From Uloborus diversus (taxonomy: Eukaryota), in NCBI RefSeq assembly GCF_026930045.1, contig NC_072731.1, forward strand, positions 137,946,156-138,010,155: a stretch of 64,000 nucleotides of DNA, written 5' to 3'. Every line of letters starts with the position of its first letter. The stretch's first letter is position 1. The notes below the pieces were generated by a model that was not told the DNA's origin, made no database searches, and worked only from the letters and a program-made list of their open reading frames with translations. The translations under genes and the position numbers were made by a program. Below, in pieces: positions 10,593 through 59,788 of this stretch.

Positions 10593-10751
10593 TTACATAT
10601 CAGAAACACTATCAGTACGCTGCTTCTTTGAAAGAGAACCAGACATCATGGCTTGCCCTAAAAATCCTTGTGCAGTGTTGAAAAGATTAATTGGAGTATT
10701 GCCATCAGTAATGAGTGCAGACTGAATACCCAATCCTTGAAGCAATTTTAC
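10593..10751 (-). CDS. MVP: MVP terminal coding exon 14 (includes TAA stop at 10593-10595)
   Basis: Acceptor ttttttag. Reads [52 protein letters not shown] then stop. Human has [32 protein letters not shown]. Confidence 0.9.
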
Positions 10752-11224
10752 CTAAAAAAGAGGTTCCAGTACTTTAGTTTAAAGATAGAATTAGTTTTTA
10801 ATGCAACTTTAATTAACTTGCGCTTGAAACGATTTTTATGAGTTAGTATCAGTTGAACAGTTTGAAAGATTGGCAAATAAGAGCAGAAGGCTTCTCTAAA
10901 ACGCACAAGTAATCAGACATTTTTATGATTTACGAAATTTAAGTAATGATTTCCCATCTCTGGTGGGGAAGTTATAAAATTTTAAACTTTTAATTAAGAA
11001 TTTATCATCTGCTGTTACCACTGGCTGATTATTAAGTGGTTCTTGGCTTGTTTAAATCATTCATATGAGCCATTTGTTTTGAAAGTGGGGCAAGTTCATT
11101 GGAGCAAGATAATGGTAATTATAGATAACACTTAGTATGATCCTTTTATATGCAACAATTTAAAAGCAAATAAATAAATTTTCATCCTAAGTTGAAGCTT
11201 TAGCTCTTCTGTACTAATAATAAA

Positions 11225-11842
11225 GCTGAAAGTCTCTCTGTCTCGATCTCTGTGACGGGCATAGGGCCTAGACCGTTCAGCCGATTTTCATGAAATTGGG
11301 CACAAAGTTAGGTTGCAGTATGGAAGTGTGCACATCGAAGCGATTTTTCAAAAATTCGATTTTGTTCTTTTTCTATTCCAATTTTAAGAACATTTTCCCA
11401 AGCAAAATTATCATAAGATGGACGAGTAAATTGCCACGTTATCATAATGTGGAACCGTAACATGAGCAAGCCATTTGGCAAGAAATTCACCATATCTTAT
11501 TTGTAAATATACAGGCAAACCAAAAGACCTTTTAATTTTCTGCTACGGGCAAAGCCGTGCGGGTACCACTAGTTACTAATAAAATTGATGACTGAAATGT
11601 CTTACTTCTAATATCTCGCAATGACAAAAAATGAATGTCTCACTTTCAAAATTAGGGCTGCCGAGAGCCAAGATAAGTTCCTTGTCAATATGTTTCCCGG
11701 TACCCCCCTCCCCCCATACACCTTTAAAATTTCAGCTGCTCTGATTTTGAGTTGGGCACTCCCAAAGAACGGGTCCCTAGTTTTCGAGGAAGCTGACATG
11801 ACCTCTCATCAGCCCCTGTTCAAAAAAAAAAAAAAAAAAACG
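11225..11842 (+). mobile_element. candidate A-tailed retroposon (SINE-like)
   Basis: A unique about 600-bp segment ends in a pure A20 tract at 11822-11841. A second A-rich tract lies at 11886-11930. There is no coding similarity, so this is weak. Confidence 0.25.
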
Positions 11843-12727
11843 CTCATATATAGTTAAAGGAATTTATACTAGATTACACCATTCAAAAAAAAAAAAAAAA
11901 AAGAAAGAAAGAAAAAAAAATCCACCTCACTATGTGACTGACTGATAGACTCTGAACAACCGAAGCAAAATTGTAGTAAAAAACAATTTATATAAATAGC
12001 ACATTGACAATGTAAATAAAAGTTTAAATCAAATAAATGAGCTTGAATAGTTAAGATCAGTGAAAAAATTATTTCTATATTTCTGACATACTACAAAGTG
12101 AAAAAGCGTGTAAGAAAAATATGGATCAGCACAGAGATATTCAGATTTATAGAGAGTTTTGAATAACTTAATTTATTAGCAAAAAACTAAACAATATATT
12201 ACATATGCTTCAATTGCTAAGACTTGACAGCAACAACTAATCTTTGACTATTCTGAGCCATCCTGTTACCACAGCAGTAGTAGGAAACAATATTTAGTGC
12301 TCATTGAATTTGAAGAAATACTTAAATTCAATCCCAGTCAGATATGTATAGCCATTTTAAATTCTTATCAAAACTTTCTTACTCATACACCACAAGAATA
12401 AAAAAGTCCATGTAGTGAATCTTTTCTAACCATTAATACATTCAATCACTTTAGTATATACCCATGCAAGAAAATTTAAAATGAACTAGACTTAGAGCAA
12501 ACTAGTATTAAAGGAATTGCAGAACATACAATGTCATCCAGGTTATCCAACTTAAAATAAACAAGGAAAAAAAAAAGATTATTCAAATTACACCATGAAA
12601 TAAAGAAAATATCACCAAGCATATATTTAAATAAGAGAAAAACAGCATTAATTGCACTTTAAAGGATCGAGTTATTGTCTATAATGAAATGTATAACATA
12701 ATTTCTTAATAGACAAAAAATGCTTAC

Positions 12728-12916
12728 TTGAAAATCTTGACCAGCTGCAGCTACCGACTTAATAGTATCAGTACCTAAGCTTTGAATCAGACTTGTGCAT
12801 TTCTTAATTTCAATCTCTGCCAGTTGCTGAGACTTTGCAATTTCAAGTTCATTTTTCTTTGAAAGGTAGTCTAACTCTGCAGTACGTGCTTTTTGCAATC
12901 TTTCCAATTCCATTTC
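12728..12916 (-). CDS. MVP: MVP coding exon 13
   Basis: Acceptor cctttcag, donor GTAAGC. Reads EMELERLQKARTAELDYLSKKNELEIAKSQQLAEIEIKKCTSLIQSLGTDTIKSVAAAGQDFQ. Human has [63 protein letters not shown]. Confidence 0.9.
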
Positions 12917-26437: not shown

Positions 26438-26635
26438 CAATTATAGGAGAGTTGCAAAGAAAGTCTTGCATGGTCAGCTGTTTCTACAGTTATAATATCT
26501 GTGCAAAAATCAGGACCCAAGAGTAAGCAAAGTGTACGAATCACATTTGGTCTTTTCGGTTTATCTCCAGATAGACTGAGCTGGGTAAACTGTTCATCAG
26601 GAGCCAGCATAACCAAATCAGGACCAAAAACAACC
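26438..26635 (-). CDS. MVP: MVP coding exon 9
   Basis: Acceptor ccttaag, donor GTAGGT. Reads (R)[65 protein letters not shown](W). Human has [67 protein letters not shown]. Confidence 0.9.
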
Positions 26636-27502: not shown

Positions 27503-27768
27503 CTTGATTGTTTTTTCTTATAATCATATACTTGAACAGCAGCATTATGCGGCACACGTAAGGTAATAGCTTTGGCCCCATCCTCTTCTGATTTGTGAGT
27601 CTTGGTCTGCACAGCTGGTGCATTTGCTGATCGCATCCTCCATGTACCACGATCACTTAAAGGGTCAGTTCCTTGAGTTAGAAGTTCTTGTACTTGAGCT
27701 GGCAATTCTTTAATCCACAATTCTTCATCTTGAGTCAACATGTATGTTGAGCCAGACACTAGGCGAAC
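27503..27768 (-). CDS. MVP: MVP coding exon 8
   Basis: ORF-track frame reads [41 protein letters not shown]...[21 protein letters not shown](R). Acceptor ttttttag, donor GTATTT, ends in phase 2. Human has [41 protein letters not shown]...[20 protein letters not shown]. Confidence 0.9.
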
Positions 27769-28200
27769 CTAAAAAACACAAAAACATGTTACTGAGAAAG
27801 TTGCCGCCCTTCAGGCAGTGCTGGTGCAGAACTACGTGCCAACCAATATACCAATAGCCTGGTTATGCCATCCAGAGACTACAGTTTCATTCTTGTTATC
27901 GACTCATCAGTCTGGCTTAGCTGTCACAAGATGACATCTGCCTTCAGCTTGGTTATAGTCTATTCCAGACTGACAAGTCCATAACAAATATGAAACTGCA
28001 GTTCTTGGATGGTAAAACCATGTTGTTAAAGCTCAAGATTAGTGCCAACTGGCGACCATTTCATAGAAAACAGGTGCCCAAAAAAAAAAAAAAAATCCCA
28101 CTACTCGTCAAAAGTGGTGAACAAGTCTATGAACACTTTCGTCTTACATACTTATTATCTCAGGAAAAAAAAACATGCATAAAAAAGAGATTATACTTAC

Positions 28201-28350
28201 ATGCCCAGATTTAATATTTCGAACATAAATTCCTTCACTTTCATCTAAAGCTATAGCGTAGCGCTTTGTAACAATTTCTACTTCAACAGGTGGAATATAC
28301 TCCGCTGGACCTTTTATCATCCAACGATCTCCAGGGCTTCGAGCAACTGC
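28201..28350 (-). CDS. MVP: MVP coding exon 7
   Basis: Acceptor ttgaaag, donor GTAAGT. Reads [50 protein letters not shown]. Human has [45 protein letters not shown]. Confidence 0.88.
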
Positions 28351-28911: not shown

Positions 28912-28984
28912 GGATAACGGTGGCTCAGTGGTAGAATTCTCGTCTCCCACACGAGCAACTTGGGTTCAAATCCCGACTAGGACA
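28912..28984 (+). pseudogene. tRNA-Gly(CCC)-like sequence without an acceptor stem (probable tRNA-derived SINE head)
   Basis: Box A TGGCTCAGTGG at 28921-28931 and the D-arm AGTGGTAGAATTC are present. The anticodon stem-loop CTCGT/CTCCCAC/ACGAG is perfect with anticodon CCC at 28946-28948. The T-arm TTGGG/TTCAAAT/CCCGA contains box B GGTTCAAATCC. The 7 nt upstream (ATAACGG) cannot pair with the 7 nt downstream (CTAGGAC). An A-rich tract ends near 29410. Confidence 0.55.
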
Positions 28985-29401
28985 AAGTGAATTTTACTAA
29001 AATTTCGTTTCTACTGTTTTCCGTATTTTCTCGAATGTTCTATTAATTTCTGTATCTTTTCAAGTCTGGAAAGTTCCAGCACTTTTTCAAGTTGTATATA
29101 AGGAGATGTAACGTTCATTCGTGGCTCTGAATAAAGATCTCGAGTTGAGACTAACGAGTATTCGCTTCATTTGGCTTTCACATTGTCTTCGCTATCTTCA
29201 TCTACGCGACAATATGAAACTCATTGTTATAAAAGTTTGGTGCCATATAACTGTAACATTAATAGTAATTGTAATGATAATTTTGAATAAAGGCTTTTCT
29301 AAAGCAATATAGTGATATAGAGCCGCACTTCTTACTAGGTAACTTCTTACTTTTACTGAAATATCTACATTTACACTAAAAAGAATGAAATAAAAAAAAT
29401 T

Positions 29402-29824
29402 TTGAAAAAAAAATAGAACCGACTTCAAAATTGCTCTAAAAAGTGAAAAATAATTTTATTCTTTAAACATCATCGATAATACTTTTAAACATAATTTTTG
29501 AAGTTGGCGCAAAAACAAAAAGTAAAATCCATTGTAACCATGCTTCGTTCATATTTTTATCAAAAAATCATCCAAACTTAGGAACGAAACATTTATATCG
29601 TTACTCAAATATGCTGTCATCAATGCGTAATGCATGTGGTAGTGAAGAAACTGGACGTGGTTAAATTTATACTTGTAGTTGAGTTATGGCTGTGAATGGT
29701 TTTATCGATCGTTTTTGCGCCAACTTCAAAAATTATGTTTAAAAGTATTATCGATGGTGTTTAAAGAATAAAATTATTTTTCACTTTTTAGAGCAATTTT
29801 GAAGTCGGTTCTATTTTTTTTTCA
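29402..29824. mobile_element. foldback-type MITE (arms about 114 bp, unique core about 195 bp)
   Basis: 29408-29515 is the reverse complement of 29711-29818 with one mismatch seen. The end motif TAGAACCGACTTCAAAA also appears as a fragment at about 28650. The flanks (TTTGAAAAAAAAA and TTTTTTTTTCAAAA) are themselves inverted. Confidence 0.6.
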
Positions 29825-30682
29825 AAATTTTTTTTTTCTAACTTCCTATAACTTCAAAAATGGCTGAAATTGATGTTATTAAGAATTCAGTTTCAGAATC
29901 TTTTCTAGGAAAAGAACCCCTTTACCCTCACATCAGCAAAGATAAAGCATAAAGTTCCATTTTAAAGACTTCAATTAAGAAAAATTCATTTGTAGTCCCT
30001 TGAAACTTCCTCTGAAGTCATTATAGAAAGTCTTAAACTGAGTTTTCAAAACTTCATCAATTTAAAAAAAATTACAACGGACAACCACCAAATCCCTTTT
30101 TCCTCCTGTAGTCACCCAAAGATGCACTGAAATAACGCTTTTAAAGCTTCAAGGTCCAAAAATTTCAGGAGAAAACCCTCAACTCTGTAAAATTGCAAAA
30201 GAGGACCAAAACTTTCTCTTTTAATACAACAGTTGCAGAATATTTTCGGCAAGAGCCCCTTAGCGTCATCAAAGATAACTTCAACTTTTTTTTTCTTTAA
30301 ATTTTTTTAAAAAGATTTCATTTTTGAAGAATTACCAAGGGACAGTCTTGATTCCTCCACACCATTCTCTAAACGTTGACACAACAATTGTTTTAAATTG
30401 CACTTTTAGAACTATCACTTATGGGGATAAGCCTTAGAAGTCTCTCCACCTCGCACAGATGGCCTAAAATAGTCTTCAGCCTCAAAAAAAAAAAAGTGCC
30501 CCTGTACTTATCCCAAAACCAGGGGGATCAACTGTCCCCTTTTGAACCCCATAAATGACAAGCTTTGCACCTACTTATCATGAACTAAACAGAAAATTCA
30601 AAATAAAATATTAATGTAATAAATTAACAGCTGTAGAAGCATTTAGCAAATGAACAACATTAAAATATTAAATAGAAATTAC

Positions 30683-30814
30683 AGGTGTTTCACTGCTATC
30701 TTGAAATGCTTCTCTGGCTCGTAATATAAGGCCTTCATTTTCACCAAGAACATAGACATCTTGAATTCCAGCTTCCAGTCTTTCACCAGGAAGTAAGAAA
30801 AAGGACTTTTCACC
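30683..30814 (-). CDS. MVP: MVP coding exon 6
   Basis: Acceptor tactag, donor GTAATT. Reads [44 protein letters not shown]. Human has [36 protein letters not shown]. Confidence 0.88.
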
Positions 30815-33221
30815 CTAGTAATCAAGAAACTTAATTTTCAGATTTTTTAAAATATAGCAAAGATATTCTAAAAAACAAAGGGAAACATTTTTTTTATGGT
30901 AACCTACACTTTAAGAGAAAGAATGATACATTCTTATGATAGAAAATTATTTGTAATACAGGAATTGTAAACTGAGCTTTAATTTTTCAGCAGTAAGAAA
31001 AGTAAGTTTGTTTGTACAGTGACAATTTTGCAATGAAATATATTGTTGAGTTTCTGTTGTGATAATACTGGAGTTTTGAAACACAGTAAACTCCCTATTA
31101 GCTGCAGATGGCTTATCCAGTGTGGATTATTCGTGGTCTAAAATACTTTATTTTTTTTATTTTTTGTCAATGATTAACTGAATGTAGATAAATGCACCAA
31201 CTTTAACAAGTGCAAAATCTATTTCTATGCATTCTTATTTCTTTCTTTCTCCTCTCTTCCAATGATATCAAACCTTCCAAAGTCACTAAAGTTAGACTAG
31301 TTAAACCTGATTTTGATTAAAAATTCGAAGTATTGCAGCATATTAGGAAATTTTATGTAGAATTCTCAAAATTTAGGCCTCTTGCCAGAGCAGAAAAAAA
31401 TTAACTCAGAGGCTTGAAATTTTATGCAGTAATTTGTGTTAGGAAGTCAAAAAATTACCATACTAAGACTTAAAGTTCAGAGGAATTTAAAATATTTTGT
31501 AAATTTTCTCCTTATTTGATGTTTTTCTAAAAATCTCAAAAATTCAAGTTTTTTGTCAGAGCAGAAACATTAACTCAGAGTCACGAAAATTTTCCCAGTT
31601 GTTAGTGTTGGGGAGTCATAATTTTTTCGCACTAGGGGGTTAAGTGCTCTGCAGAATTTTTATTTTTTCAGCCCACCCTACTGCAAACTTCTCTGAATTG
31701 GAAAGAGTTCCCCTTTTCTTTGCTGTCTTCATGAAATTCTAAAATTTAGAGCAGAGAAATACAGTTCAAAAAGATATAGAAAAAATCTAAAAACAAAAAA
31801 AGGCACCTAAATCTATGTAAGAGTCCTCAGTGGCTAAGAGGTCAAAATCACTTGCTCCCGCAGCTGCTTGTGCCTCAGCTTTCTATTTTATTTTGAAGCT
31901 TTTTTGCAGGGTTGCGGAGTCTGAAGAAAATTGGCCGACTCCGACTCCAGGATTTTGAAACGTCCGACTCCGACCGTGACTTTATCATTATTTTTTTTCA
32001 AATTACGCACCCCTCCCCTCATGGGAAGGGGAAAACCCCTGAAAGAGATTGAAATACAGTGAAGCACTGTTTATATGTTTTTGAAATGACTGTATGAAAA
32101 AAGCGTACAAACGAAAAAACGTATAATAGATATAGGTTGATATGTATTGGACTTTGCAGGGACCAATTTTAAAAATGTATAATTGATAAAAACGTATAAA
32201 AGAGAAACGTATAAACGATGCTTCACTGTATCAATTCTTTTTTATGAAATTTTCGCGCTGTTTTATTCTAAACCTAAAATGCATACAACGTTAGAAATTC
32301 AATTTGAAAATCTAATTATGTAATAGTTGCGATTTCTAAAGTGAGATTACTTAAAAATCCCATTTTTAAAAAAACTGAAAAGGATTAATTTGCATCCCTG
32401 TAATGTTTAACAAATAGGGTAAGTGCTCCAGTAGTCAGCCGGTATCCAGTAATCGACCACAAGGACATAAATCTGCTTATAAATAGAACATGTACAGCTC
32501 AAAATCTGATGTGATGCATTCCCACATTCCTTTAACTATCCCCAATTATCATCCAATAACAGTGAAGCTGTAAGTCCTTTTTATTAAATAGTAATGAGTC
32601 ATTTTATTTTAAATGGTGTACATATCATCCTAGTTTGCGATTCTGCTTATTTTTTTGTTAAGAAGACACATAATCTTTAAACGTTAAGCAACCTTCTTTT
32701 TTTCTTTCTACTGTAAATTTGCTTTTTCTTATGTTTTAATGGGTTGTATAACATAACGTTTCAATTAAAAAATATTTTTCTTAGACTCAATTATTTTTAG
32801 AGGGGTGGCTGACCACTGGGTACTGAATTCTTATATATTTCTAATAGTCGGCCATGGCACATTGACCACTGGTCCTATACTGTTTGGTTGATCTACCCAG
32901 TAGTCGACTGCTTACTTAATATGGATTTTCTAATGTTTATCAAATAGTAACTAAAATAAAGTATTGACACAGCAGCAATTTAGCTGTTTTGAGTAAAAAT
33001 ACCTTTTTTAATGTCATTTCTTCAAGAGAAAATGTTTAAATTTTGTCTTAACTTTTTTTGACAAAAAGTATCGTTTCATCATTTTGCTGTTTCTAATGTT
33101 GATTTCAGTTAAGAATTCTCAAAAACAGGGTTGAAAACAGGCTGTAAATCCAGTCCGTCGTTGCATTTAGAATATAAGTTCTAATACTCAACTTGTCATT
33201 ACCAAATGGTACATGGACGTC

Positions 33222-33472
33222 CATATACAAAATTGCAAGAGGGTTGGGCTCAGGTATTTTGACCATGGTTTAGCAGGATATTTTCCAAAAGGGAGCCGAT
33301 TTCAGGACAGATTAGAGTCATTAAAATTTGACATTCTTAATAACTTATTCATTAATGGCTGGAGAAGAAATGTTTTTACATTTTTGCAAAGAAAAAAGTA
33401 CTAAAAGCAAGGAAGTTCTAGTTTCTATAAGGGGTGCTCAAGCCCCCAATTACCCCCCTATATGGGTGCCCT
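33222..33472. mobile_element. MITE family copy B (same family as 7165-7443)
   Basis: Left end GACGTCCATATACAAAATTGCAAGAGGGTTGGGCTCAGG and right end GCTCAAGCCCCCAATTACCCCCCTATATGGGTGCCC match the ends of copy A. Confidence 0.4.
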
Positions 33473-34189
33473 TCAAATGATAATTTATCGGGGGGGGGGG
33501 GAGATTAATCAAACTATGATGGGTTGATGAAATTGATAAAACAAATGATCCAATTGCAGTTAGTATTCAATCGGCAATAAATAAACATTTCCATTGTAAG
33601 GTTCAAGATGTAATACTTCAATAGTTACGCTAGCTCAAATTATTTCAATGAGCTTTAACCCTGTGAATATTCTTTCTATTGCTCATTTTGCTAAACTATT
33701 TGCTTCACCAAAGGTGCAAGAAATCTGTATTCTATTAAGACTAATTATTCTAAATGTTGGTACTATTTTTTATTACTGCTTATAACTAAATTATGTTTTC
33801 TTCACAAGGAAATCAAAATTCACTTCTTGTTTAAAATTATGCTGAATTTGTTTTAAAATAATATGATTTCAGAGTTGCATTACGCTGCTACCCACTCCAT
33901 TTTAGTTTATTCATTGTATACTAATGTTCTTGTTGTAAGGTGTAATGTTATCTTCGTGACGTCCCCCATTTCTAAATTTCAATTTACCCATATACAGGCT
34001 GTGATTCAGGCAATCGGGACGGGGGGGGGGGGGGGCATTTTTGCTAGTATTTTGATTGTTTCCTTTTAAATGAATTGTATTCATACGCTAAATATTCTTA
34101 CCCCAAGTTTGTTGCGAAACGAAGTAAAAAAAAAATGTTTTATACAGATTATATTTCCTAATATAGGACATTCTAATGTGATTCAATCG

Positions 34190-35275
34190 TAAACTCTCTA
34201 AATATTACCAATAGAGGCCAAAATAAAACCAGATTTTAAAAAAAAACGCCAAATTTGTAACCAAGTTGGCGACATAACTTCGCGACCAAAAGCTCGGCGA
34301 TATATCACCAAGTGCTTGACAAATTATAACACAACTTGAGTTTGCATTGAAATTAACAATGATTTCCCCCCAAAAAGGTGTAAAAAGACCCCCTTTGGAA
34401 CATACAAATGCAACCAAAAGGGGAGGTGCACAACTAGACCCCACTAGGAGTCTACGTACCAAATTTCAACTTTCAAAGACATACCATTTTCGAGTTATGG
34501 GAGATACATATACACATACGTACATACATACCTACATATGGACGTCACGAGAAAACTCGTAATTAACTCGAGCATCCTCAAAATGGATATTTCGGGTTTC
34601 TATACGTTCTTAAGCATGCATGTATCTATGTGTGGTCGGGTTGGAAAAAAACTCAATATTCATTCAGGGGCGAGCAAAATGGAAATTAAGGCTGACTTTT
34701 GGGTGAAATTTTTTTTGCGAATACAATACTTCCTTTACTTTGTAAAAGGAAGTAAAAAAAACACAAAAATTTGTTGCCAAGTTGGCGAAGAAACTTGGCG
34801 GCCAAAAGCTTAGCGATATATCGCCAAGTGTTTGCCAAATTATAACACCACTTGAGTTTGCATTGAAATTAACAATGATTTCCCCCCAAAAAGGTGCAAA
34901 AGACCCCCCTTTGGAACATTTGAATGAAACCAAAACAGGAGGTGCATAACTAGACCGTACTATGAGTCTACGAACTAAATTTCAACTTTCTAAGACATAC
35001 CGTTTTTGAATTATGCGAGATACATACACACATACATACAGACATCATGAGAAAATTCATTGTAATTCATTCAGGGATTGTCAAAATGGATATTTCGGGT
35101 GTCTATACGTTCTTAGGCATATATTCACGTGTGGTCGGGTTGAAAAAAAAAACTCAATATTCATTCGGGGGCTAGCAAAATGGAAATTAAGCCTGATTTT
35201 TTGGTGAAAATTTTTTCGTGAATACAATACTTCCTTTACTTTATAAAAGGAAGTAAAATATATAAACATTTTTTA
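34190..35275. repeat. tandem dimer of the about 520-bp repeat (units about 34190-34760 and 34760-35275)
   Basis: The two units align throughout. Each ends with the hairpin TACTTCCTTTACTTTGTAAAAGGAAGTA. The ORF-track ORFs here are artefacts of the repeat. Confidence 0.75.
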
Positions 35276-35724: not shown

Positions 35725-35961
35725 CTTTATCAGTTTCTTTCGCCCAAACTGTGGTTTCCCATCAGTGCCAATTGGATCAAGAATCACGCAATATTGACGA
35801 TTAGAGAGAGTAGTAATATTGACTAAACCTAACACATTTTCATAGACTCCGGGAATATAGGTTTCAGTATCTTTGATAGTGACTAACCACTCTTCTCCAT
35901 TTTTCCTTGTTTTGCCAAAATCATCAACAAAAGTTTTTTGAGCTTTGACATGAACTGCTTC
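35725..35961 (-). CDS. MVP: MVP coding exon 5
   Basis: Acceptor ttttatag, donor GTAGAA (weak but unique). Reads [79 protein letters not shown], 79 codons. Human has ...[58 protein letters not shown]. Confidence 0.85.
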
Positions 35962-37253: not shown

Positions 37254-37480
37254 TTTCTCAGTTAATACATATGCATTCACTACATCTATAACTTCTTCAT
37301 AGGCTCCTGGTAAATAGGCTCCACTTTTTTTAACAATCCATTCTTCCCCAGTTACCCTTAGCTTACCATCACGGTCTTTAGTTTCAGCACGAGCACGGAG
37401 TTTTAAAGCTTGGTTTGGATTAATAACCTCTGCTGAAACTGTTTCCACAACTTCAACTTCCTTTCTTGGCACAAAGGTTC
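37254..37480 (-). CDS. MVP: MVP coding exon 4
   Basis: ORF-track frame reads (G)[75 protein letters not shown]. Acceptor aattaaag, donor GTAAGT. Human has [49 protein letters not shown]...VILTEK. Confidence 0.9.
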
Positions 37481-38872: not shown

Positions 38873-38993
38873 CAGGGCCTTCAAAAAGCCATTCATCTCC
38901 CGCTACATGTTTTACATCCCCATCTTCAAAATCTCGAACAGCTTTTAGTCTCAGAGCACTGTTTGAAGGAACAACAGTTAAGGGTGTGACATC
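38873..38993 (-). CDS. MVP: MVP coding exon 3
   Basis: Acceptor ttttcag, donor GTAATT. Reads [40 protein letters not shown](G). Human has [42 protein letters not shown]. Confidence 0.88.
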
Positions 38994-41169: not shown

Positions 41170-44100
41170 GGGGACCGTGGACCTTCCAAATAGCTCAAAT
41201 CGGTCAAAAATATGATTTTTTTATTCCGTGGAAGTAACAATATATGAAGTGTGCTGAATCGTATGAAAAAACCTCTTGTTGATCTGACGTTTTATCGCGA
41301 AGTTATATGCGTTTAAAAAAAAGTAAACAAAGCGTATTTTCCATTAAAATGACTGTAAAACATGTAAACAAAGTCGAAAAACTAAGTAAAACTAAGTGTC
41401 AAAAATGTAAACTTAGTTTTAATAAATTCTATCATTGGTATTAATGTCAAATATTTAGTCATCGTGAAAATATCTTTCGGGAGGTATTAAAATACGAAGA
41501 ACATGAAATGTAGTTGAAATTAGACTTTAACGTCATTTATCTCGGACTGGAAAATTCGATGCGACACAGATTGGAAAAAGCTCCATGCGACTTAATATTT
41601 GTTCGATATGCTTCAAATTTCAGAATATGATACTTTGGTAGTAGTTTGATAAAACTGGGTATGCATTAAGGTTTAAGAGAATTTTATGTTGCTTAAAAAT
41701 ATTAAAGTTTTGATTTTTATGTAATATTCGCAACAAAAACTATTGCTTTACGCGAAAAAAAATACTGTGCAGTTAATAATGGACCAATCCTTAACTGTTT
41801 AACCGCCGAACTACTGTTGGAAGATCAAATTTGAGTAATTTTTTGAAATTATGTCTATTTATGTCTAGTAAATACAGAAATAAAATAAAACTTCCAGAAA
41901 ATTTTTTTTTACTATGTTTTTCAGTGTGTTCCATTTTTGAAACATTGGCGCTTTGCATGAAGTTTTTTTTTTTCAGAGAATTTTTTTAAACTAAGAGGTT
42001 TTGAATGCAGTTTTTATCTTAGCATACTTTATTACGGAAAAAATAATATTTTATATTGCATTTATGTACATACCAGAATTCAGAAAATCCAATACAGAAA
42101 TATCTAATGCCCATGATATGAAAAGAAGCATTGCTGGTGAAGTCATTTGTCGCAATGGAAACATTTCTTAGTCGTATTTTTTTTGCACACCGCACAACGT
42201 CCCTGGGATGCAGATACAATGAAATGTCCGTCAGACATTCTTGATTTTTTATGTAAATGACAACGAGGCCCTGGATGACTTTCCACTCGTACTTTTCTTC
42301 TTAGAAGGTGAGTTGTTATTTCTCTTCGGAACTCTAAATGCTTCATCTTGACTTCGTGTAACTCACAATGAAGTAACCAACTAGCTACAACTGAAATATT
42401 CAGAGCATTACTAAAAAGATTCCACTACCATTTTTTACTCCTCAAATGAGGTCTGTAGCTCCCTAAAAGTTTATCCAAGACGTCCACGCCCCCCATTCCT
42501 TCATTGTATCTCTTGATAAGATGAGGTTGTGGCACATCTATCTTGCATTTCTGCGCATATGAGTAACATTTTACAGATGCAAGTGGCTCATGTGTATAAC
42601 AATTAGATGCTACTGTAACCACTGCATTATCATTCCAGCCGCACATGTACATTGATCCATCAGATCGATAGTCAAAATTTCCTCGATCTTCTTTAGAAAG
42701 GGCTTTTTTGGATTTCAGTGGACAATGAGCAGTTCGGTTTTCACGAATTGTTCCTGTTGCTCATACACCTTTTTTTGATAGCTGAGAAATTAAGTCATAT
42801 GATGTAAAAAAAGTTATCAAAGTATACTTCATGCTTAGACGTGTCAGTCAAAACTGATAATAGATCATTTACAAATCTGGATCCTAACTGCACACCAGGG
42901 GATCCTTCTTTTTTGCTTGAATAAATCTCCATGGAATATGGGTATCCACTTGAAGGGCACAGCATCCAAATTTTGAAACCGAATCTTATTGGTTTTCCTC
43001 TAATAAACATTTTACATGAATGCTGACCGTAGTAGGGATCCCTAGATTCTATGCTCAATTTTTCATGAAATACACCAAATTGTTGAAGGTTTTTACACAA
43101 TTCTTCGTAAATAGGGTATACTTTTCCAAGTTTGTCATTTTGTTTTAATTCATGATTGTCCATCAAATGAAAGTTGTTTTTTATTTTTCAAAAAAGATTT
43201 CGAGGTATAACTGTTGGTACAATTGGCACAGATGTATCTTCTGCATTGCTCCAATACATATCTTCAGAAGGAACAGAATGGTATCCACTCAATAGCAGCA
43301 AACCAAAAAATTGTAGGATTTCATTTCTGTCAACATCTATTGATTCTCCTTTTTGCAATGCATACAAGTTTGTCACATTTGCTAAGTGTTCAACATACTG
43401 CAAAGGTAAAATTTTAAAAAATAAATCAATTGGAGATAAATCCACTATATTCGGAAATGCGTGTTTAAGCGATTCAATACTTTTTGACGAAATCAGTTTC
43501 TGAAAGTTAGCTTTCTTCTCCCAAGTTAAATCCATTTTCATTCTTTTTCTACTTTTATTTCCTGATAATTCCAACTTTTTCTTTTTTTCCGTTTTCATTC
43601 GCTTTTTTACTTTTATTATCTAATGATTTCAGACTTTGTTCTTCCTCCGATTTTTTTGTTAATTTTCACGAGAGTTGGCGGAAAAAATGTCCACCTGTCC
43701 ACATACATCAATTGGTGTAATATGTTGTAACTCGTCTTCTAGAATGTCTTCTTCCTCAGTGATATTGCCTGGTTCATCACGGGGTAATTGGCATATATCT
43801 ACATCTGACAAATTCGAATCTGACAATGTCTCTAAATAAGCCACAGCTTGTTCTACAGTAAGAAATCTTGTAGACATTTTTTAACATTTATGAACAGTTG
43901 GTATACGTCAAACAGAATTTCGTTTCACTCGAAAACAAAGCTAGCGAAATATTGAACTGCATTTAAAATATGAAGAATAAAACGCTCACTAATATTGTTT
44001 TTTATTATCATGTGACAATGCAGCTGTCTGAGCAGGTGTGGATTAGGAGCCATATAGTTCGTTAAACAGTAGACTATTATTTTCTTTGCTAACGAAACAT

Positions 44101-44897
44101 CATATCCTTTCAAAATATAAACTTACTTAGTTTTGCCAACATCTACATCAGAGTACATTCAAAATGAGAAGAAAAAAGAAACATATATTACGAAAAATGA
44201 AATTTCCCCTTTAAAGTCGAATAATTTACTTCTTGGAAATTTGACTCCCTAAAAGCGCCAATGTTCCAAAATTGGAACATGTTATTTTGAAGGGGTACAC
44301 CTTTTGGAAATATCATTGTACATTTCTACAAGCCTTTTAAAATCATACGTTGAAGTATTTTTCACAACTATAATAAATATCATCACATTTTCTGAAAAAG
44401 CCAATTTTTGGTAAGTTTTATAAGAAAAAGTTGGAAAAAGCTAAAAAAACACTCATCTTTGAAAAATCGCAATAAATAATTAAAAATATATAAACAATCA
44501 AGTAGGAAATCAAAAAATACTTTGAAATAAGACTAAACTGTGTTAAAAAAAAACTTGTTTATTTTAACGTTATTTCTTGGGAAAATTTTCAGTTAAATAT
44601 GATGTTCCATTTTTGGAACATTGGCGGGTAAACGGTGGATACCCAAAGCTCTTGGCAATGTTCTGTTCTTTTATAAAATGCAAATTTTTTGAGAAAACAG
44701 CAAAAATTGAGTCGCATGGAGCATTTTAAAATTTTTATTTTAAATTTCAAAATTTTTGATTTTAATTAAATTTTTATATTGTTGCATTTTTTTTTGCTTG
44801 ATATTTTGCATGCTAATAAACTCACTAACTTTTATGCCCAGTTTCATATTTCAAAATTAATAAACAAAAGAAAAAGCTTTCAAGGTCCACGATCCCC
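41170..44897 (-). mobile_element. piggyBac-like DNA transposon, complete ends, decayed transposase
   Basis: Left end reads TTAA|GGGGACCGTGGACCTT (TTAA at 41166-41169). Right end reads AAGGTCCACGATCCCC|TTAA (TTAA at 44898-44901). The inverted repeats match at about 15 of 16 positions. Subterminal repeats GTTCCATTTTTGGAACATTGGCG occur at about 41925, 44255 (inverted) and 44605. Confidence 0.7.
42143..43877 (-). pseudogene. piggyBac-type transposase broken into at least 5 frame segments
   Basis: ORF fragments carry piggyBac hallmarks: ...ILQFFGLLLLSGY..., ...YYGQHSCKMFIRGKPIRFGFKIWMLC..., ...YNEGMGGVDVLDKL... and a C-terminal Cys-rich tail RCAVCKKNTTKKCFHCDK. Adjacent fragments are in different frames. 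Confidence 0.75.
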
Positions 44898-45387: not shown

Positions 45388-45583
45388 AGAGTGTATAATT
45401 TCACCAGGATACAATGGAAATGGATCTTGCTCTAACCTTACTTCAAAATCAGCATGCTTTAGTTTAATCTGACCTGTTTTATCAATTATCAAAGCATTTT
45501 CTTCACTTCGCATAACAGGATTGCGTATTACACAAAAGTGGCATGGTGGAATTATGATCATTTTTTGAGGTCCAAGGATTACA
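45388..45583 (-). CDS. MVP: MVP coding exon 2
   Basis: Acceptor cctttag, donor GTAAGT. Reads (H)[65 protein letters not shown]. Human has [24 protein letters not shown]...[25 protein letters not shown]. The phase joins the CA carried from exon 1. Confidence 0.88.
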
Positions 45584-46154: not shown

Positions 46155-46902
46155 CCCAGTGATCTCTTGCTTATACGCGATCTCTGTTATACGCTTTTTT
46201 CACGTATGCGCGTTTTCCTCAGGGGTCCGGCCTGCGATATAGGAAAACAATGTTAACTCCTGTTCATTTATATGCAAAACCTAAAATGCACCTTTCACTT
46301 ATGCATAATCAATTTTTTCAAGTTTTATTGAAATCGTGTATTTACGCTTTGCTTATAGGAAGATTCGTACCTTTCTTGCTCTGTCTCTTGGAATGCATTC
46401 ACACGCCTGTATTCCATTGTTCGAATTCTTCCAAGAACGCGTTCTTATTTGCACAAGTGGGCAATTGGGGGTGTAATTAGTCATGTGATTGAAATCGAGA
46501 GGGGAGAACAGGTTACATACAAAAAGGTTGACGTCACTGAAAGTTGTGGTCAAGCGGCAAGGATTGAGGGTGCCTATCCAGGATCTTTTGCAGCCTTGTA
46601 GACTATAGCTTCGGTCACGTGACATTTTTTAACTTTTGGGGCGCTTACGTACTGTACAGTGCATAAAAATGACAAAACCTACAGCTTCAAATTTTACATT
46701 TTTATTAAAATACAATGCATAAACGGAAATTATGTGCATATTTATTCATTAGTATTAGTAGGGTATTATTAGTATTACTATAACTGGTGTTTACTTATTG
46801 CATTTAAGCTTATTTTTGGGTTTTTCACTTATGCGCGAATCTCACTTGTGAGCGAAAATTTCGTTGTCCTCTTTGGTTGCGTATAAGTAAGAGATCACTG
46901 CA
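46155..46902. mobile_element. Tc1/mariner-like MITE (748 bp)
   Basis: Inverted repeats CCCAGTGATCTCTTGCTTATACGCGATC at 46155 and GTTGCGTATAAGTAAGAGATCACTGCA at 46876-46902. TA dinucleotides flank both ends at 46153-46154 and 46903-46904. Confidence 0.5.
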
Positions 46903-48711: not shown

Positions 48712-49111
48712 TCAGTGAAGATCAATGGCCCTCTTAAAACTATCTACTCCCTTACTCATTACCACCTCTTCCGGTAAGCTGTTCCAAGGTTCCGCTACCC
48801 TGCTAAAATAATCATTTTTCCTAATATCCATGTTAGCCTGAGATTTAAATAGCTTAAAACAATGATCCCTTGTCCTGTTTTCAGTGCTAAACTTCAGCCC
48901 CGTAACATCTTTCATTTTAATAAATTTAAACAACTGAATCATGTCCCCTCGGTCTCTTCTTTACTCAAGACTATACATTTTTAGCCTTCTAAGCCTGGAA
49001 TTATAGTCTAAATGAGAAAGTCCATTTATTAGCCTTGTAGCCTGCCTTTGAACCTTTTCCAATACACTAATATCTTTCTTAAGATAAAGAGACCAAAACT
49101 GAACAGCATAC
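48712..49111 (-). pseudogene. CR1/L2-like LINE reverse transcriptase C-terminal part and 3' region (same element, interrupted by a nested insertion)
   Basis: Reads VQFWSPYLKKDISVLEKVQRQATRLINGLSHLDYNSRLRRLKMYSLE*RRDRGDMIQLFKFIKMKDVTGL...FFSRVAEPWNSLPEEVVMSKGVDSFKRAIDLH, the conserved CR1-type C-terminal tail. The 3' UTR extends further down to roughly 48230. Confidence 0.8.
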
Positions 49112-49157
49112 CAGGGGCGTAGCTAGACCCGACTTTCGGGGGGGGGGGTTCTTCTTT

Positions 49158-49220
<63 letters not shown>

Positions 49221-51642
49221 ATATATATACATTTTTTTAGTATTAAAGAAATGAGAGGGAGGTGTATCTTACATACTTTGGAAAGGGGTGACCCTATTCC
49301 GATACTTGTGTCAAACAAAACAAAAGCAAGGAATTTTTTATTTTTTTTAATGTTGTGGAAAATTCAACTTTTTTTCCTTTTTCCTTTAATTTAAAGTGAA
49401 ATTTTCTAGCATTCTCTTGTCAAAACCAGTCTTTCCAAATCAAGGGGAAGTCAAATATCTGATGAGCGTGTTCCGTTCACTTCAGTGTGACTGCTTAATT
49501 TAGAGGCTAACACACATCTACAAAAGCTGGCATCCCTGAAAGCTAATAGATACTTCCATTTCTGCCTGTAAATTGGATGTTTGACTTTCAATCTCATCGG
49601 TGGTCAGACTATAAAGACTATTTTTACTAACTTGGTTTGCACTAAAAGTATGAAATAAAATAAAAAAAGACTTCTTGAATTATAACCCACAAAAAATAAA
49701 ATTGCTTTTCATATCGTTATATTTATATGTTGCTTTTTATGTATTTACATTTATGCTAAATCTAAAGCAGTTAATAAAATTTGAGTAAAAAAAGTTAGGG
49801 AAGAAATATAGGCGGTAGAAAGTTATTCGCTCAAATGCATACCATCTGTTCTCCTCTCAAGTCTTTATTTTTAATTTTATTAGCCGCTTTAGAATTTACA
49901 TAAATATCTATTTGAGAGTGCAACAGCAATTTTCGGGTATTATAAACAGAAGTCTTTTTTTTTTTCTACTTTTTAATCCGAACCAAGCTAATAGAAATAA
50001 TCTAGATTCATCTCGTTTTTAAACATTTTATTCATGTAATGCTATGCAGTTTTTCATTGAATTAAAATAAAATTACCTTCAGAAGGGTTCGATGGGACTG
50101 ATGTTGCTTTGCAGACTGTACTTCGTTTTCTTCAGACGACGTTAACTTTCTCTTTATAGAGCAATCCTTTTCGTCATTTTAATTTTTTTTTTTTTTTTTT
50201 TGGTTGAAAAAAGCTTGTTATCGGTCTTGCTCGCTTCATTATGCAACAACTTTCACTTAGAATGTACTATTTTAAACAGACTGTACGTTTCCAAAAGAAT
50301 ATGCAGTAAATACTGGATGAAAAATCAATGTGATTGCAAAGGATACTCTGGTTAGCAAAGGTCGTTTTGACTATGACCTATGACACACACGAAATCAGAC
50401 CAACAAAAACCTCTATCGTCTCGAATTCCGGTTAAGCTATCATTTTCGGATTCAAAGCAAAATGATCTTTAAAGCAGCAAACAAAAACATTTTCTTCAAC
50501 TCAGAAACAGAGGAAATGTCTTCAAGAGCTGAGGAGGCAGTGGAAAAAAGGGAGAAATGCGTTCCACGAATAGGCTTTCCAGGAAGATTAACCAAAGGAC
50601 AGTCGTTTCGCGCACTTTCTTGGAAGAAAAGTAAAGGGGTGAAATTCACAGGTTTGAAATGTTAAGATGAACATTTCAATTTCATGTTTAAAGATCATTC
50701 AAGTTAAAAACCATTTCGCTCTGTTATCCGGATTAGTACTGTTCTTTGGTAGCTCTCTTTCTTAAAATTGAGATTCCTTAGAAAACCGAAATGATAGGAG
50801 TGAAAAGAAAGTATAAGTTTTTTTCAAGTGATGAAAAAAGGAAAATTGTAGAATACTGACCAAGTTAGATTTGCTGCAATTGCTAACCTCAAGAGCATAA
50901 ATAATGAATCCAAAAAAAAAAAAAAAAAAAAAAAATCAGGGACCAAAAAGCAATAAAAGACTTCTTCTTGAAAAAGATATGCTTAAAGTTTCTTTTACTG
51001 TCAAAATGATTCCTTAAACTCTCAATAAAGCACTAAATAATGTAATAATAGAATAAATACCTAACAAAACTAATAAAGAGGAATTTTAATCAAGAGCCCA
51101 CGTTGTCTTTAGTATCGATTTCAAATTTTCACCATCATATTTCAAATTTCTATAAAAAGTCTCTTAAAGCCCCCGTATTTCAAAACGTCTTTATCTCGAT
51201 TTTTTTCTTTAATGTGAAATTCGAAATATACAGATACGACTGTATGCAATATTCCCACTGTGCGGCTCATAAAATTAAACATATTTAACAATTTGCAGAA
51301 TCAATGACAAACAAAGGCTGCATATACGTGGATTTAACAAATCAATCTCATTTCTAAAGCGAAGTGTCAACTTTCACTCAATTATCAAAAAATTGTCGCA
51401 GCAGAGGAAGGCGTCTTTATGCTTGAGGGTCACACATGGAGCAGATTTTCAATGGCATTGGGGGGGGGGGGGAGCGAAATGAATTTTTGACCTTTGTTAC
51501 TCAGTAAAAAGTCGTTTTGAATTTTTTTCTTTTTCTTCTTTTTTTTCTTTCTCTTCCCTCTTTTTCTCTTTTTTTTTTTTTTTTGACTAACGTTTCGGGG
51601 GGGGGGGTTGTCCCCAAAACCCCCCCCTTAGCTACGCCCCTG
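49112..51642. mobile_element. hAT-like non-autonomous element (2531 bp) nested in the LINE
   Basis: Inverted repeats CAGGGGCGTAGCTAG at 49112 and CTTAGCTACGCCCCTG at 51627-51642. A perfect 8-bp target-site duplication CAGCATAC flanks it at 49104-49111 and 51643-51650. Removing the element rejoins the reverse transcriptase frame as HLEYA|VQFWSPY. Inside are a (TA)n tract, G-runs and no transposase. Confidence 0.75.
49161..49230. repeat. (TA)n microsatellite (inside the nested hAT-like element)
   Basis: About 35 TA units, seen directly. Confidence 0.95.
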
Positions 51643-51650
51643 CAGCATAC

Positions 51651-52320
51651 TCCAAATGAGGTCTTACCAAACTTCTATATAAAGGCAGAAGAACTTCTTC
51701 AGATTTGTTTGAAATAGATCTATTGATAAACACAAGCATCTTATTGACTTTGTTACTAGCTATGCTGCACTGTAGGCTAAACTTTAAATCCTGACTTATT
51801 AAGATGATTAAGACCCAGATCAGTAACTTTTTCTGCCTGACTAATGACTGAACCTTGCAAATAATAACTTGTACACTTATTTCCATGCCCTAAATGTAGC
51901 ACTTGACATTTCCTAACATTAACAGCCCACTCCCTAATACGATCTAGATCCTCTTGCAGCTGATTTGCTCGTTCTTCATTTTCTACACTCCCCATAACTT
52001 TGACATCATCAGCAAAACAAGTCATGTTTCCAGGAATATTTTTATGAATATCGTTCATAAAAACAATTAACAAAACAGGCTCTACCACTGATCCTTAAGG
52101 AACCCCGATTAAAATCTCACTCCAATTAGAATAATTTTTCCTTACAACTACCTTCTGTTTCCCTCTGGTCAGCCAGTTTTTTACTCAAATGAAAGATTTC
52201 CCTCCTATTCCTATATCAGCAAATTTGCTAAGTAGAGCAACATACAGTACCTTATCGAAAGCTTTTTGAAAATCAATGTAAACAACATCTACAGGCTTCT
52301 TATTGTACAGATAGACGTAG
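51651..52320 (-). pseudogene. CR1/L2-like LINE reverse transcriptase fragment (5'-truncated element, upstream part)
   Basis: Minus strand reads YNKKPVDVVYIDFQKAFDKV...GSVVEPVLLIVFMNDIHKNIPGNMTCFADDVKV...LYRSLVRPHLEYA. These are the FxDFxKAFD and F/YADD reverse transcriptase motifs. There is one internal stop and one frameshift. Confidence 0.8.
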
Positions 52321-52863
52321 ATACAAAGAGAGATATAGCAGATAGATAAATAGAAGTAGATGTTGAGTTAAATAGTTTTATGCTGCTGCCAAATTTAACT
52401 AAGCAGCAGTCCGAGGCAATCTTGGCATTCAATAGTTAATGGCACAAGAAAGTGAACCATCTAGCCACAGAAGGGAACTAGTTAAAAGATTTAAAAATAA
52501 AAAAAGCATTAATAACGCAAAAAAAAAAAAAAAATGATGAATCACTGCAATGAATTTGAGTTATTTCCTGATCTAAACCAATTATTTAATTCAAAAGTTA
52601 TATGAATAAATCCACCGTAAGTGTTAGATGTCTTTAAAAGGCTTTTTGCTATTTTTTAGAGTGATTTGAAAGTTTAAATCAATAGTGTCTTAAAACTGGT
52701 GTCTTGAACTTAGTGACTTTTTACATTGTCTGAATACTACAGTAGGATACAAGTTGTCAAATACCCAACAAAACAACAAGGTTAAGCAATAATCTATAGA
52801 CAAACAATGGATGAAAATTTAACAAAATGCTTCAAGAATGGTAAATACTGGAAATATACATAC

Positions 52864-53024
52864 TGTTCATTTTCCTGTCGAATATAAGTTTTTGGACCAG
52901 TTTCTACACGAGTTACATTAGTAGTTTGATCAAGAACATGCAAGTAGTAATATGGCGGTATACGATAAATACTTTGCTTCTCAATATTTGTTGAAGCTTC
53001 ACCAGAACCTTTGCCTTGAGCCAT
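52864..53024 (-). CDS. MVP: MVP coding exon 1 (ATG at 53024; donor GTATGT)
   Basis: ORF-track frame reads [53 protein letters not shown] plus two bases (CA). Compare the human N-terminus [41 protein letters not shown]. An acceptor-like ttgtttag sits 2 nt before the ATG. Confidence 0.85.

Positions 53025-53208: not shown

Positions 53209-53277
<69 letters not shown>

Positions 53278-59705: not shown

Positions 59706-59788
<83 letters not shown>
59706..59788. repeat. (TA)n microsatellite
   Basis: About 40 TA units, seen directly. It lies about 60 bp from the left end of the second mariner. Confidence 0.95.

What the first reader, a model, noticed from the sequence alone, without database searches (positions are those of the whole stretch)
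10593..53024. Complete 14-exon major vault protein gene with 42 kb of transposon-laden introns
All 14 coding exons were found. Each has canonical AG/GT splice sites and a phase that matches its neighbours. The spliced product of about 877 aa is collinear with vertebrate MVP. Introns reach 7 kb and contain at least nine different transposable elements. MVP is missing from the best-known insect and nematode models, so its presence narrows where this AT-rich genome sits.
Basis: partly seen in the sequence, partly recalled or inferred. Interest (0 to 1): 0.5.

Follow-up and report, generated by a model that had tools for sequence, protein, structure and literature searches.

The report
Spider major vault protein gene
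This is an intact, ordinary major vault protein gene of the spider Uloborus diversus, lying on the minus strand; it is already annotated in RefSeq, and its unusual length comes from long introns that hold several transposon remnants.

Summary
On the minus strand, 14 coding exons (53024 down to 10593) join through 13 GT..AG introns with matching phases. They give a 2,634-nt ORF of 877 aa.

- **Identity.** The product is 100% identical over its full length to RefSeq XP_054711972.1, "major vault protein-like isoform X2 [Uloborus diversus]". It carries every Pfam vault domain. It aligns end to end with solved MVP structures (about 1150 bits).
- **Gene structure.** All 13 intron positions and phases are the same in two other spiders and in Limulus. 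Nine are exact in Nematostella.
- **Selection.** dN/dS against Caerostris is about 0.07, so the gene is under purifying selection.

- Introns total 39.8 kb, not 42 kb. The longest is 7,280 bp.
- The gene is not complete at the 5' end. RefSeq isoform X1 adds an upstream exon (ATG at 54249) across a 5' intron that is conserved in spiders.
- Only three transposon types are supported by protein homology: an intact mariner in intron 10, a frameshifted piggyBac in intron 2, and non-LTR reverse-transcriptase fragments in intron 1. Four or five further repeat or foldback families are seen by structure only, so "at least nine" cannot be checked here.

MVP in chelicerates is already published. Verdict: correct, ordinary and already known.

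The parts
54228..54249 (-). Coding part of an upstream 5' exon used by RefSeq isoform X1. It reads ATG TCT GCT TGG AAA AAT AGA A|GT, which encodes MSAWKNR plus the first base of an Asn codon.
   Evidence: P0121 (XP_054711966.1, 885 aa) equals the 877-aa model plus an N-terminal MSAWKNRN. The peptide is found at this place, followed by a GT donor. Where this exon starts at its 5' end is unknown.
52864..53026 (-). Coding exon 1. The acceptor AG is at 53028-53027 and the exon starts at 53026. The ATG of isoform X2 is at 53024-53022. Phase-2 donor.
45388..45583 (-). Coding exon 2 (196 nt)
38873..38993 (-). Coding exon 3 (121 nt)
37254..37480 (-). Coding exon 4 (227 nt)
35725..35961 (-). Coding exon 5 (237 nt)
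30683..30814 (-). Coding exon 6 (132 nt)
28201..28350 (-). Coding exon 7 (150 nt)
27503..27768 (-). Coding exon 8 (266 nt)
26438..26635 (-). Coding exon 9 (198 nt)
21802..21943 (-). Coding exon 10 (142 nt)
16513..16724 (-). Coding exon 11 (212 nt)
14958..15201 (-). Coding exon 12 (244 nt)
12728..12916 (-). Coding exon 13 (189 nt)
10593..10751 (-). Coding exon 14, ending in the TAA stop at 10595-10593. The 3' UTR continues to lower coordinates. The first AATAAA is at 10147, 445 nt past the stop; the poly(A) site itself is inferred.
19156..20493 (+). Intact mariner element in intron 10, antisense to MVP. It has 33-nt inverted ends that are 100% complementary and include the TA target dinucleotide. 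Its uninterrupted ORF (19319-20392, 357 aa) carries the D,D34D spacing.
   Evidence: Pfam: Transposase_1 2.4e-22, HTH_48 1.9e-8, DDE_3. Inverted ends. Flanks. ORF. The D,D34D spacing was counted by hand on the translation.
41170..44897 (-). piggyBac-type element in intron 2. The transposase is broken by frameshifts and lies at about 42022-43880. Candidate ends are GGGGACCGTGGACC...GGTCCACGATCCCC, each flanked by TTAA. These boundaries are tentative.
   Evidence: Pfam DDE_Tnp_1_7, 5.7e-55, profile positions 1-334 of 349. Inverted repeat I4. End sequences.
51635..52200 (-). Fragment of a non-LTR retrotransposon reverse transcriptase in intron 1, with frameshifts.
   Evidence: Pfam RVT_1: E 5e-5 at 23.6 bits and E 2.7e-5 at 24.4 bits over profile positions 70-202. 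Both scores are below the 29.6-bit gathering cut-off.
48715..49125 (-). C-terminal tail-like fragment of a non-LTR retrotransposon in intron 1 (…VQRQATRLINGL…RRDRGDMIQLFK…WNSLPEEVV…). It is either a second fragment or a displaced part of the element at 51.6-52.2 kb.
   Evidence: Recognised by eye from the ORF translations. No Pfam model matches this tail. This is inference.
34089..35258 (.). Two tandem copies of a repeat of about 515 bp in intron 5. A third copy lies outside the gene at 4686-5368. Copies are 80-83% identical.
33215..33473 (.). 259-bp repeat in intron 5, with an inverted copy at 7175-7430 (79% identical).
29392..29835 (.). 444-bp foldback or MITE-like element in intron 6, with 136-nt arms that are 96% complementary.
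27845..28027 (.). Palindromic element of about 183 bp in intron 7. It is related at 65-79% to the 8309-8723 palindrome and to 61737-61868.

Best explanation
The region is the single-copy, functional major vault protein (MVP) gene of the orb-weaving spider Uloborus diversus, transcribed from the minus strand.

Fourteen coding exons are spliced through 13 canonical introns into an 877-aa protein. A 5' exon lies upstream, and it either stays untranslated or adds 8 residues in isoform X1. By homology to the solved rat and human vaults, the protein has the N-terminal stack of vault repeat domains, the shoulder domain, the cap-helix coiled coil and the cap-ring. It therefore most likely assembles into the barrel-shaped 78-mer vault shell. 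The assembly step is inferred, not shown.

The exon-intron plan is ancestral. The gene is long (about 42 kb from ATG to stop, compared with 16-19 kb in two other spiders) because its introns have grown, in part through DNA-transposon and retrotransposon insertions.
For: - **Gene model.** The ORF is intact and all 13 introns are GT..AG with consistent phases. The model was reproduced by exact mapping of the RefSeq protein.
- **Identity.** The product is 100% identical over 100% of its length to XP_054711972.1 of U. diversus, on a 272-Mb contig.
- **Domains.** Pfam: Vault 1.5e-69, MVP_shoulder 4.3e-52, Vault_2 1.3e-34, Vault_3 5.7e-34, Vault_4 2.8e-21.
- **Structures.** Collinear alignment to solved MVP chains, query 16-859 against chain 4-852, about 1150 bits.
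- **Gene structure.** All 13 intron positions and phases are shared with Caerostris, Oedothorax and Limulus; 9 are exact in Nematostella.
- **Selection.** dN 0.135 and dS about 1.8 against Caerostris give dN/dS of about 0.07.
- **Composition.** CDS GC is 39% and intron GC is 32%.
- **Copy number in the window.** No duplicate exons occur elsewhere in the window.
- **Intron content.** Transposon proteins and repeats lie within the introns.
Against: No transcript data were available. The junctions, the 5' exon usage and the 3' end therefore rest on homology and on the RefSeq (Gnomon) prediction. Formation of vault particles in spiders was not tested here. dS is saturated, so the dN/dS value is approximate. 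Most intron sequence (about 80%) could not be assigned to any element, so the share of intron growth that is due to transposons is unknown.
Confidence: 0.97

Rival explanations
1. It is a decaying pseudogene or a non-functional copy of MVP sitting in repeat-rich DNA.
For: The introns are long and hold transposons. No expression data were available.
Against: The 877-codon ORF has no stop or frameshift, and all 26 splice-site dinucleotides are canonical. dN/dS is about 0.07. The protein is 81-82% identical to other spider MVPs over its full length.
Confidence: 0.01
2. The MVP signal comes from a contaminant or symbiont, or from horizontal transfer, as has been reported for MVP hits in winged-insect assemblies.
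For: PMC11219742 rejected MVP hits in pterygote assemblies as trypanosomatid-like or rotifer-like contamination.
Against: The nearest relatives are spiders (75-82%), followed by Limulus, a scorpion and myriapods, which is the order expected for vertical descent. All 13 intron positions are shared with chelicerates. The gene lies in AT-rich DNA with arthropod-type mariner and piggyBac insertions on a 272-Mb chromosome-scale contig.
Confidence: 0.005
3. The true product is the 885-aa isoform X1, made from 15 coding exons and starting at the ATG at 54249. On this reading the reader's 14-exon model lacks the first coding exon.
For: RefSeq lists X1 with an N-terminal MSAWKNRN encoded at 54249-54228. 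Annotated proteins of Caerostris and Oedothorax also begin in an upstream exon, with an intron at the same place 2 nt before the conserved Met.
Against: The N-terminal extensions have no sequence similarity between spiders (MSAWKNRN, MTDCHFHKILDLYNVDWPPLASSSEN, MGYGFRQNIYKLESSTDWPPLPSLQA). The MA(P/Q).K.. start is conserved, and Limulus, scorpion and cnidarian proteins start near it. The extensions therefore look like ORF extension into a 5' UTR by the annotation pipelines. A strong donor (AACCG|GTAAGT, exon end 54362) upstream of the extra ATG could give a transcript without that ATG (inference).
Confidence: 0.2

Closest known systems
RefSeq XP_054711972.1 / XP_054711966.1, major vault protein-like isoforms X2 / X1 [Uloborus diversus]
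   Same: X2 is identical to the spliced model at every one of its 877 residues. X1 differs only by 8 extra N-terminal residues encoded at 54249-54228.
   Different: Nothing differs; this is the same gene. The annotation is a computational (Gnomon-type) prediction, and the present work reaches the same model independently.
MVP of other chelicerates: Argiope bruennichi, Caerostris darwini, Oedothorax gibbosus, Parasteatoda tepidariorum, Limulus polyphemus, Centruroides sculpturatus
   Same: These proteins are 69-82% identical over 96-100% of the query and have the same Pfam architecture. All 13 coding introns sit at the same positions and phases in Caerostris, Oedothorax and Limulus. The 5' intron just before the start codon is shared by the three spiders.
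   Different: Introns total 39.8 kb in Uloborus, 13.4 kb in Caerostris, 12.8 kb in Oedothorax and 31.9 kb in Limulus. The flanking DNA shares no detectable coding sequence with the Oedothorax neighbours (NAC, EMC1, RPL23A) within this window.
Vertebrate MVP (rat and human vault shell; PDB entries 4V60/4HL8, 7PKZ, 9Z4W, 11DR and others)
   Same: The alignment is collinear from residue 16 to 859 at about 1130-1150 bits. The human gene has 15 exons (PMC7916137), which fits the 14 coding exons plus one 5' exon seen here.
   Different: The spider protein has a 12-residue longer N-terminus. It has a loop about 7 residues longer near position 450-475, a loop about 10 residues shorter in the shoulder near 625-630, and a different, shorter C-terminal tail (alignment). 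Human intron positions could not be checked with these tools.
Salmon louse MVP paralogues LsMvp1-3 (PMC11219742)
   Same: They are arthropod MVP orthologues. That paper documents MVP across Chelicerata apart from Acari.
   Different: The louse has three paralogues with three exons each. The spider locus keeps the ancestral plan of 13 coding introns.

Membership tests
Major vault protein (MVP) | N-terminal array of vault repeat domains (Pfam Vault, Vault_2, Vault_3, Vault_4) | tested here: met
   Vault 230 bits (4 stretches), Vault_2 119 bits (2 stretches), Vault_3 116.5 bits and Vault_4 75.9 bits. All are well above their curated cut-offs.
Major vault protein (MVP) | Shoulder domain after the repeats | tested here: met
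   MVP_shoulder, E 4.3e-52, residues 537-654 covering profile positions 1-118 of 118.
Major vault protein (MVP) | C-terminal cap-helix (long coiled coil) and cap-ring segments, collinear with solved vault structures | tested here: met
   phmmer aligns query 16-859 with chain residues 4-852 of 9z4w_A without rearrangement. Query 758-859 also matches the isolated C-terminal chain 9z5n_B, E 6e-29. The domain names come from the published rat vault structure, recalled from memory.
Major vault protein (MVP) | Orthology shown by gene structure (shared intron positions and phases) | tested here: met
   13 of 13 introns are shared with Caerostris, Oedothorax and Limulus; 9 of 13 are exact in Nematostella.
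Major vault protein (MVP) | Self-assembly into the 78-subunit vault particle, associated with TEP1, PARP4 and vault RNA | not testable with these tools
   No experiment was possible. No vault RNA was found in the window at Rfam gathering thresholds. The partner genes were not sought outside the window.
Mariner (Tc1/mariner superfamily) - element at 19156-20493 | Mos1-type transposase with an HTH domain and a D,D34D catalytic domain | tested here: met
   Transposase_1 2.4e-22, HTH_48 1.9e-8, DDE_3 2.3e-7. There are 34 residues between the D of HDNARPH and the D of APSD, counted by hand on the translation.
Mariner (Tc1/mariner superfamily) - element at 19156-20493 | Short terminal inverted repeats flanked by a TA target duplication; size about 1.3 kb | tested here: met
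   The inverted ends are 33 nt, 100% complementary and begin and end with TA. The element is 1,338 bp.
piggyBac superfamily - element in intron 2 | DDE_Tnp_1_7 transposase | tested here: met
   E 5.7e-55 over profile positions 1-334 of 349, spread across several frames, so the gene is frameshifted and inactive.
piggyBac superfamily - element in intron 2 | TTAA target duplication flanking terminal inverted repeats that typically begin CCC and end GGG | tested here: inconclusive
   A TTAA-flanked inverted repeat exists at 41170 and 44897, but it reads GGGG...CCCC rather than CCC...GGG. Other nested inverted repeats are present as well. The boundaries are therefore tentative.
Non-LTR retrotransposon - fragments in intron 1 | Reverse-transcriptase domain (RVT_1) above the curated threshold | tested here: inconclusive
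   The scores are 23.6 and 24.4 bits (E 5e-5 and 2.7e-5) against a 29.6-bit cut-off. The fragment is partial. The clade was not determined.

The most novel reading that the evidence does not exclude
The most novel reading left open concerns the 1,338-bp mariner in intron 10. It has perfect 33-nt inverted ends, a TA duplication and an uninterrupted 357-aa D,D34D transposase. It could be a currently active autonomous mariner in Uloborus diversus that inserted very recently into the MVP gene. Separately, the conserved intron just before the start codon could allow regulated production of an N-terminally extended MVP (isoform X1) whose extra residues would lie at the vault waist.
Probability: 0.15. 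Interest if true: 0.3.

Novelty: already known. Interest (0 to 1): 0.1.

Why it matters
It matters little beyond quality control. The result shows that the first-stage reader can rebuild a 14-exon gene correctly from raw sequence. It identifies the window as Uloborus diversus (Araneae). It also gives a clean example of an ancient, conserved intron plan whose introns have grown threefold relative to other spiders. MVP in chelicerates and this gene model itself are already public, so no open question is advanced.

Tried and rejected
- **Genomic look-up.** Look-ups of the two RefSeq isoforms in the contig index found nothing on record. The RefSeq exon table could therefore not be compared directly. 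Exact mapping of the protein onto the window was used instead.
- **Other coding sequence.** Pfam scans covered ORFs of at least 70 aa across the window outside 10-19 kb, all filtered open frames of at least 40 aa on both strands inside the gene, and those of at least 46 aa in the flanks. They found no further host gene and no further transposon protein.
- **Neighbours.** tblastx of the 10-kb flanks of the Oedothorax and Caerostris MVP loci against the window gave no hit. No syntenic neighbour lies within this window.
- **RNA genes.** Rfam at gathering thresholds gave only a weak tRNA-like hit at 28920-28977. ARAGORN found no tRNA. No vault RNA was found.
- **Mariner copy number.** The exact mariner transposase sequence is not in the protein collection, so copy number could not be estimated.
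- **Extra MVP exons.** Duplicated or alternative MVP exons were sought in the introns and rejected. Weak secondary hits are cross-matches between the internal vault repeats.
- **Transposon census.** A full count ('at least nine') could not be made, because no eukaryotic repeat library and no other part of this genome is available to the tools.
Full report
**What is in the sequence.** The window is AT-rich (32.4% GC). As a lead only, I searched it by tblastn with an MVP sequence recalled from memory. That gave 14 collinear hits, all on the minus strand, running from about 52970 down to about 10656. For each of the 13 junctions I listed every GT/GC donor and AG acceptor that kept the frame and scored the joined peptide. 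In every case one GT..AG pair was clearly best, and the acceptors are preceded by pyrimidine-rich tracts.

Joining the exons gives a 2,634-nt ORF: 877 codons, then TAA, with no internal stop. The exon ends are 53024-52864, 45583-45388, 38993-38873, 37480-37254, 35961-35725, 30814-30683, 28350-28201, 27768-27503, 26635-26438, 21943-21802, 16724-16513, 15201-14958, 12916-12728 and 10751-10593. Introns measure 7280, 6394, 1392, 1292, 4910, 2332, 432, 867, 4494, 5077, 1311, 2041 and 1976 bp.

**What it is.** Pfam finds Vault (four stretches), Vault_2 (two stretches), Vault_3, Vault_4 and the full MVP_shoulder domain, with E-values from 1e-69 to 1e-21. Against the PDB, residues 16-859 align without rearrangement to residues 4-852 of solved major vault protein chains, at about 1130-1150 bits.

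In the large protein collection the best hit is 100% identical over 100% of the length: "major vault protein-like isoform X2 [Uloborus diversus]", XP_054711972.1, on a 272-Mb contig. The next hits are other spiders (Argiope 82%, Caerostris 81%, Oedothorax 82%, Trichonephila 80%, Parasteatoda 78%). After them come Limulus (72%), a scorpion (69%), myriapods, and then cnidarians, molluscs and echinoderms at 65-68%. The window is therefore a piece of a U. diversus chromosome, and the gene is already annotated. An exact-match mapper, run with the RefSeq protein against the window, returned the same 14 exons and junctions. No additional exon-like copies lie in the introns or flanks.

**Is it functional?** The ORF is intact and all splice dinucleotides are canonical. 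Against the Caerostris coding sequence, dN is 0.135 and dS about 1.8, which is near saturation. That gives dN/dS of about 0.07, meaning strong purifying selection. Exons have 35-44% GC and introns 32%.

By homology with the solved vault shell, the protein most likely assembles into vault particles. That step is inferred; nothing here tests it.

**Gene structure in context.** I fetched the MVP loci of Oedothorax gibbosus, Caerostris darwini, Limulus polyphemus and Nematostella vectensis. I mapped each protein exactly onto its own DNA.

- All 13 Uloborus introns fall at the same alignment column and in the same phase in both spiders and in Limulus.
- Nine are exact in Nematostella, and two more lie within one residue.
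- The exon plan is therefore ancient, and only intron length has changed: 39.8 kb in Uloborus, 13.4 kb in Caerostris, 12.8 kb in Oedothorax, 31.9 kb in Limulus and 7.6 kb in Nematostella.

The human gene is reported to have 15 exons (PMC7916137). That fits 14 coding exons plus a 5' exon.

**The 5' end: the gene is not quite 'complete'.** RefSeq also lists isoform X1 (XP_054711966.1, 885 aa). It equals X2 plus MSAWKNRN at the N-terminus. These residues are encoded at 54249-54228 on the minus strand, followed by a GT donor. They join an AG acceptor at 53028-53027, two bases before the X2 start codon.

Caerostris and Oedothorax have an intron at exactly this place, a split codon immediately before the conserved Met. 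Their N-terminal extensions share no similarity with each other or with Uloborus, whereas the MA(P/Q)-start is conserved. I put the alternative at about 0.2.

A strong donor (AACCG|GTAAGT, exon end 54362) lies upstream of the extra ATG and would give a transcript without it. That is inference. The 3' UTR runs below 10593, and the first AATAAA is 445 nt past the stop.

**Transposons in the introns.** Three kinds are supported by protein homology.

1. *Intron 10, mariner.* This 1,338-bp element (19156-20493) is antisense to MVP. Its 33-nt inverted ends are 100% complementary and include the TA dinucleotide. It has an uninterrupted 357-aa ORF matching Transposase_1, HTH_48 and DDE_3, with D,D34D spacing.
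2. *Intron 2, piggyBac type.* The transposase (DDE_Tnp_1_7, 5.7e-55) is split by frameshifts across 42022-43880. It lies inside a TTAA-flanked inverted repeat at 41170/44897, whose sequence is not the usual CCC...GGG. The boundaries are therefore tentative.
3. *Intron 1, non-LTR retrotransposon.* A reverse-transcriptase fragment lies at about 52200-51635; RVT_1 gives E about 3e-5, below the gathering score. A tail-like fragment lies at 49125-48715 and was recognised by eye only.

Repeat structure adds further candidates:

- two tandem copies of a repeat of about 515 bp at 34089-35258, with a third copy at 4686-5368;
- a 259-bp repeat at 33215-33473, with an inverted copy at 7175-7430;
- a 444-bp foldback at 29392-29835;
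- a palindromic element of about 183 bp at 27845-28027, related to 8309-8723 and 61737-61868;
- nested inverted repeats around the piggyBac.

Pfam scans of the filtered open frames of at least 40 aa on both strands of the gene found nothing else. Roughly 8 kb, or about 20% of the intron sequence, can be assigned to these elements. The rest cannot be judged without a repeat library for this genome. 'At least nine different elements' is therefore plausible but not verified. 'Transposon-laden' is fair.

**Surroundings.** Outside the gene, the only recognisable coding sequence is a second, frameshifted mariner at about 59848-61171 on the minus strand. It is 29-32% identical in protein to the first, so it belongs to a different subfamily. 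No Pfam domain was found in the rest of the flanks. There is no shared coding sequence with the neighbours of the Oedothorax or Caerostris MVP loci. Rfam reports only a weak tRNA-like match in intron 6, which ARAGORN does not confirm.

**Comparison with what is known, and novelty.** MVP was long described as missing from insects, nematodes and fungi, and an earlier survey proposed loss in arthropods (PMC7916137). A 2024 study found orthologues in 41 ecdysozoan taxa, including Chelicerata apart from Acari, and placed the insect loss within Pterygota (PMC11219742). A spider MVP is therefore expected, and this particular gene is already in RefSeq.

The contamination explanation raised for MVP hits in insect assemblies does not apply here. 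The nearest relatives are spiders, and the intron plan is the chelicerate one.

**Verdict.** The finding is ordinary and already known. Interest is 0.1.

Noticed in passing
window 19156-20493 (+), intron 10: This mariner looks intact: its 33-nt inverted ends are 100% complementary, it is flanked by TA, and its 357-aa transposase ORF is uninterrupted with D,D34D spacing. It may still be active or may have inserted very recently. The exact protein is not in the public protein collection.
   Followed up: partly
window about 59848-61171 (-), upstream of the gene: A second mariner-type element with 41-nt inverted repeats (85% complementary) and a frameshifted transposase. It is only 29-32% identical in protein to the intron-10 element, so it belongs to a different subfamily.
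   Followed up: partly
window 54228-54249 and 54362 (-): The upstream 5' exon gives RefSeq isoform X1 its extra MSAWKNRN. A second strong donor (AACCG|GTAAGT) lies 113 nt upstream of that ATG. Together they suggest alternative 5' splice sites that either include or skip the extra start codon. The intron 2 nt before the main ATG is conserved in three spiders.
   Followed up: partly
window 8309-8723; 27845-28027; 61737-61868: These form a family of palindromic (hairpin) repeats. The 415-bp copy at 8309-8723 has 180-nt arms that are 97% complementary. Diverged relatives lie in intron 7 and in the upstream flank. They are probably MITE-like elements.
   Followed up: partly
window 28920-28977 (+), intron 6: A weak tRNA-like match in Rfam (32.4 bits against a 29-bit threshold, model positions 7-64) that ARAGORN does not call. 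It could be a degenerate tRNA pseudogene or the head of a tRNA-derived SINE.
   Followed up: partly
window 49161-49229, 53209-53304, 59706-59788: Three long (TA)n microsatellites of 35-48 repeat units. One lies about 185 bp upstream of the MVP start codon, inside the 5' intron.
   Followed up: no
L004 (Oedothorax gibbosus locus) compared with the window flanks: In Oedothorax, MVP is flanked within 10 kb by a NAC/UBA gene, EMC1 and RPL23A. None of these is detectable in the 10.5 kb downstream or the 9.6 kb upstream of MVP in this window. Either the intergenic DNA is also expanded in Uloborus or synteny is broken.
   Followed up: partly
window 41927-41954, 44252-44287, 44595-44626: The palindrome-containing motif ATGTTCCA(N4-5)TGGAACATTGGCG occurs three times. 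Two copies bracket the piggyBac transposase remnant and the third lies just beyond it. They may be subterminal transposase-binding repeats or a nested MITE.
   Followed up: no
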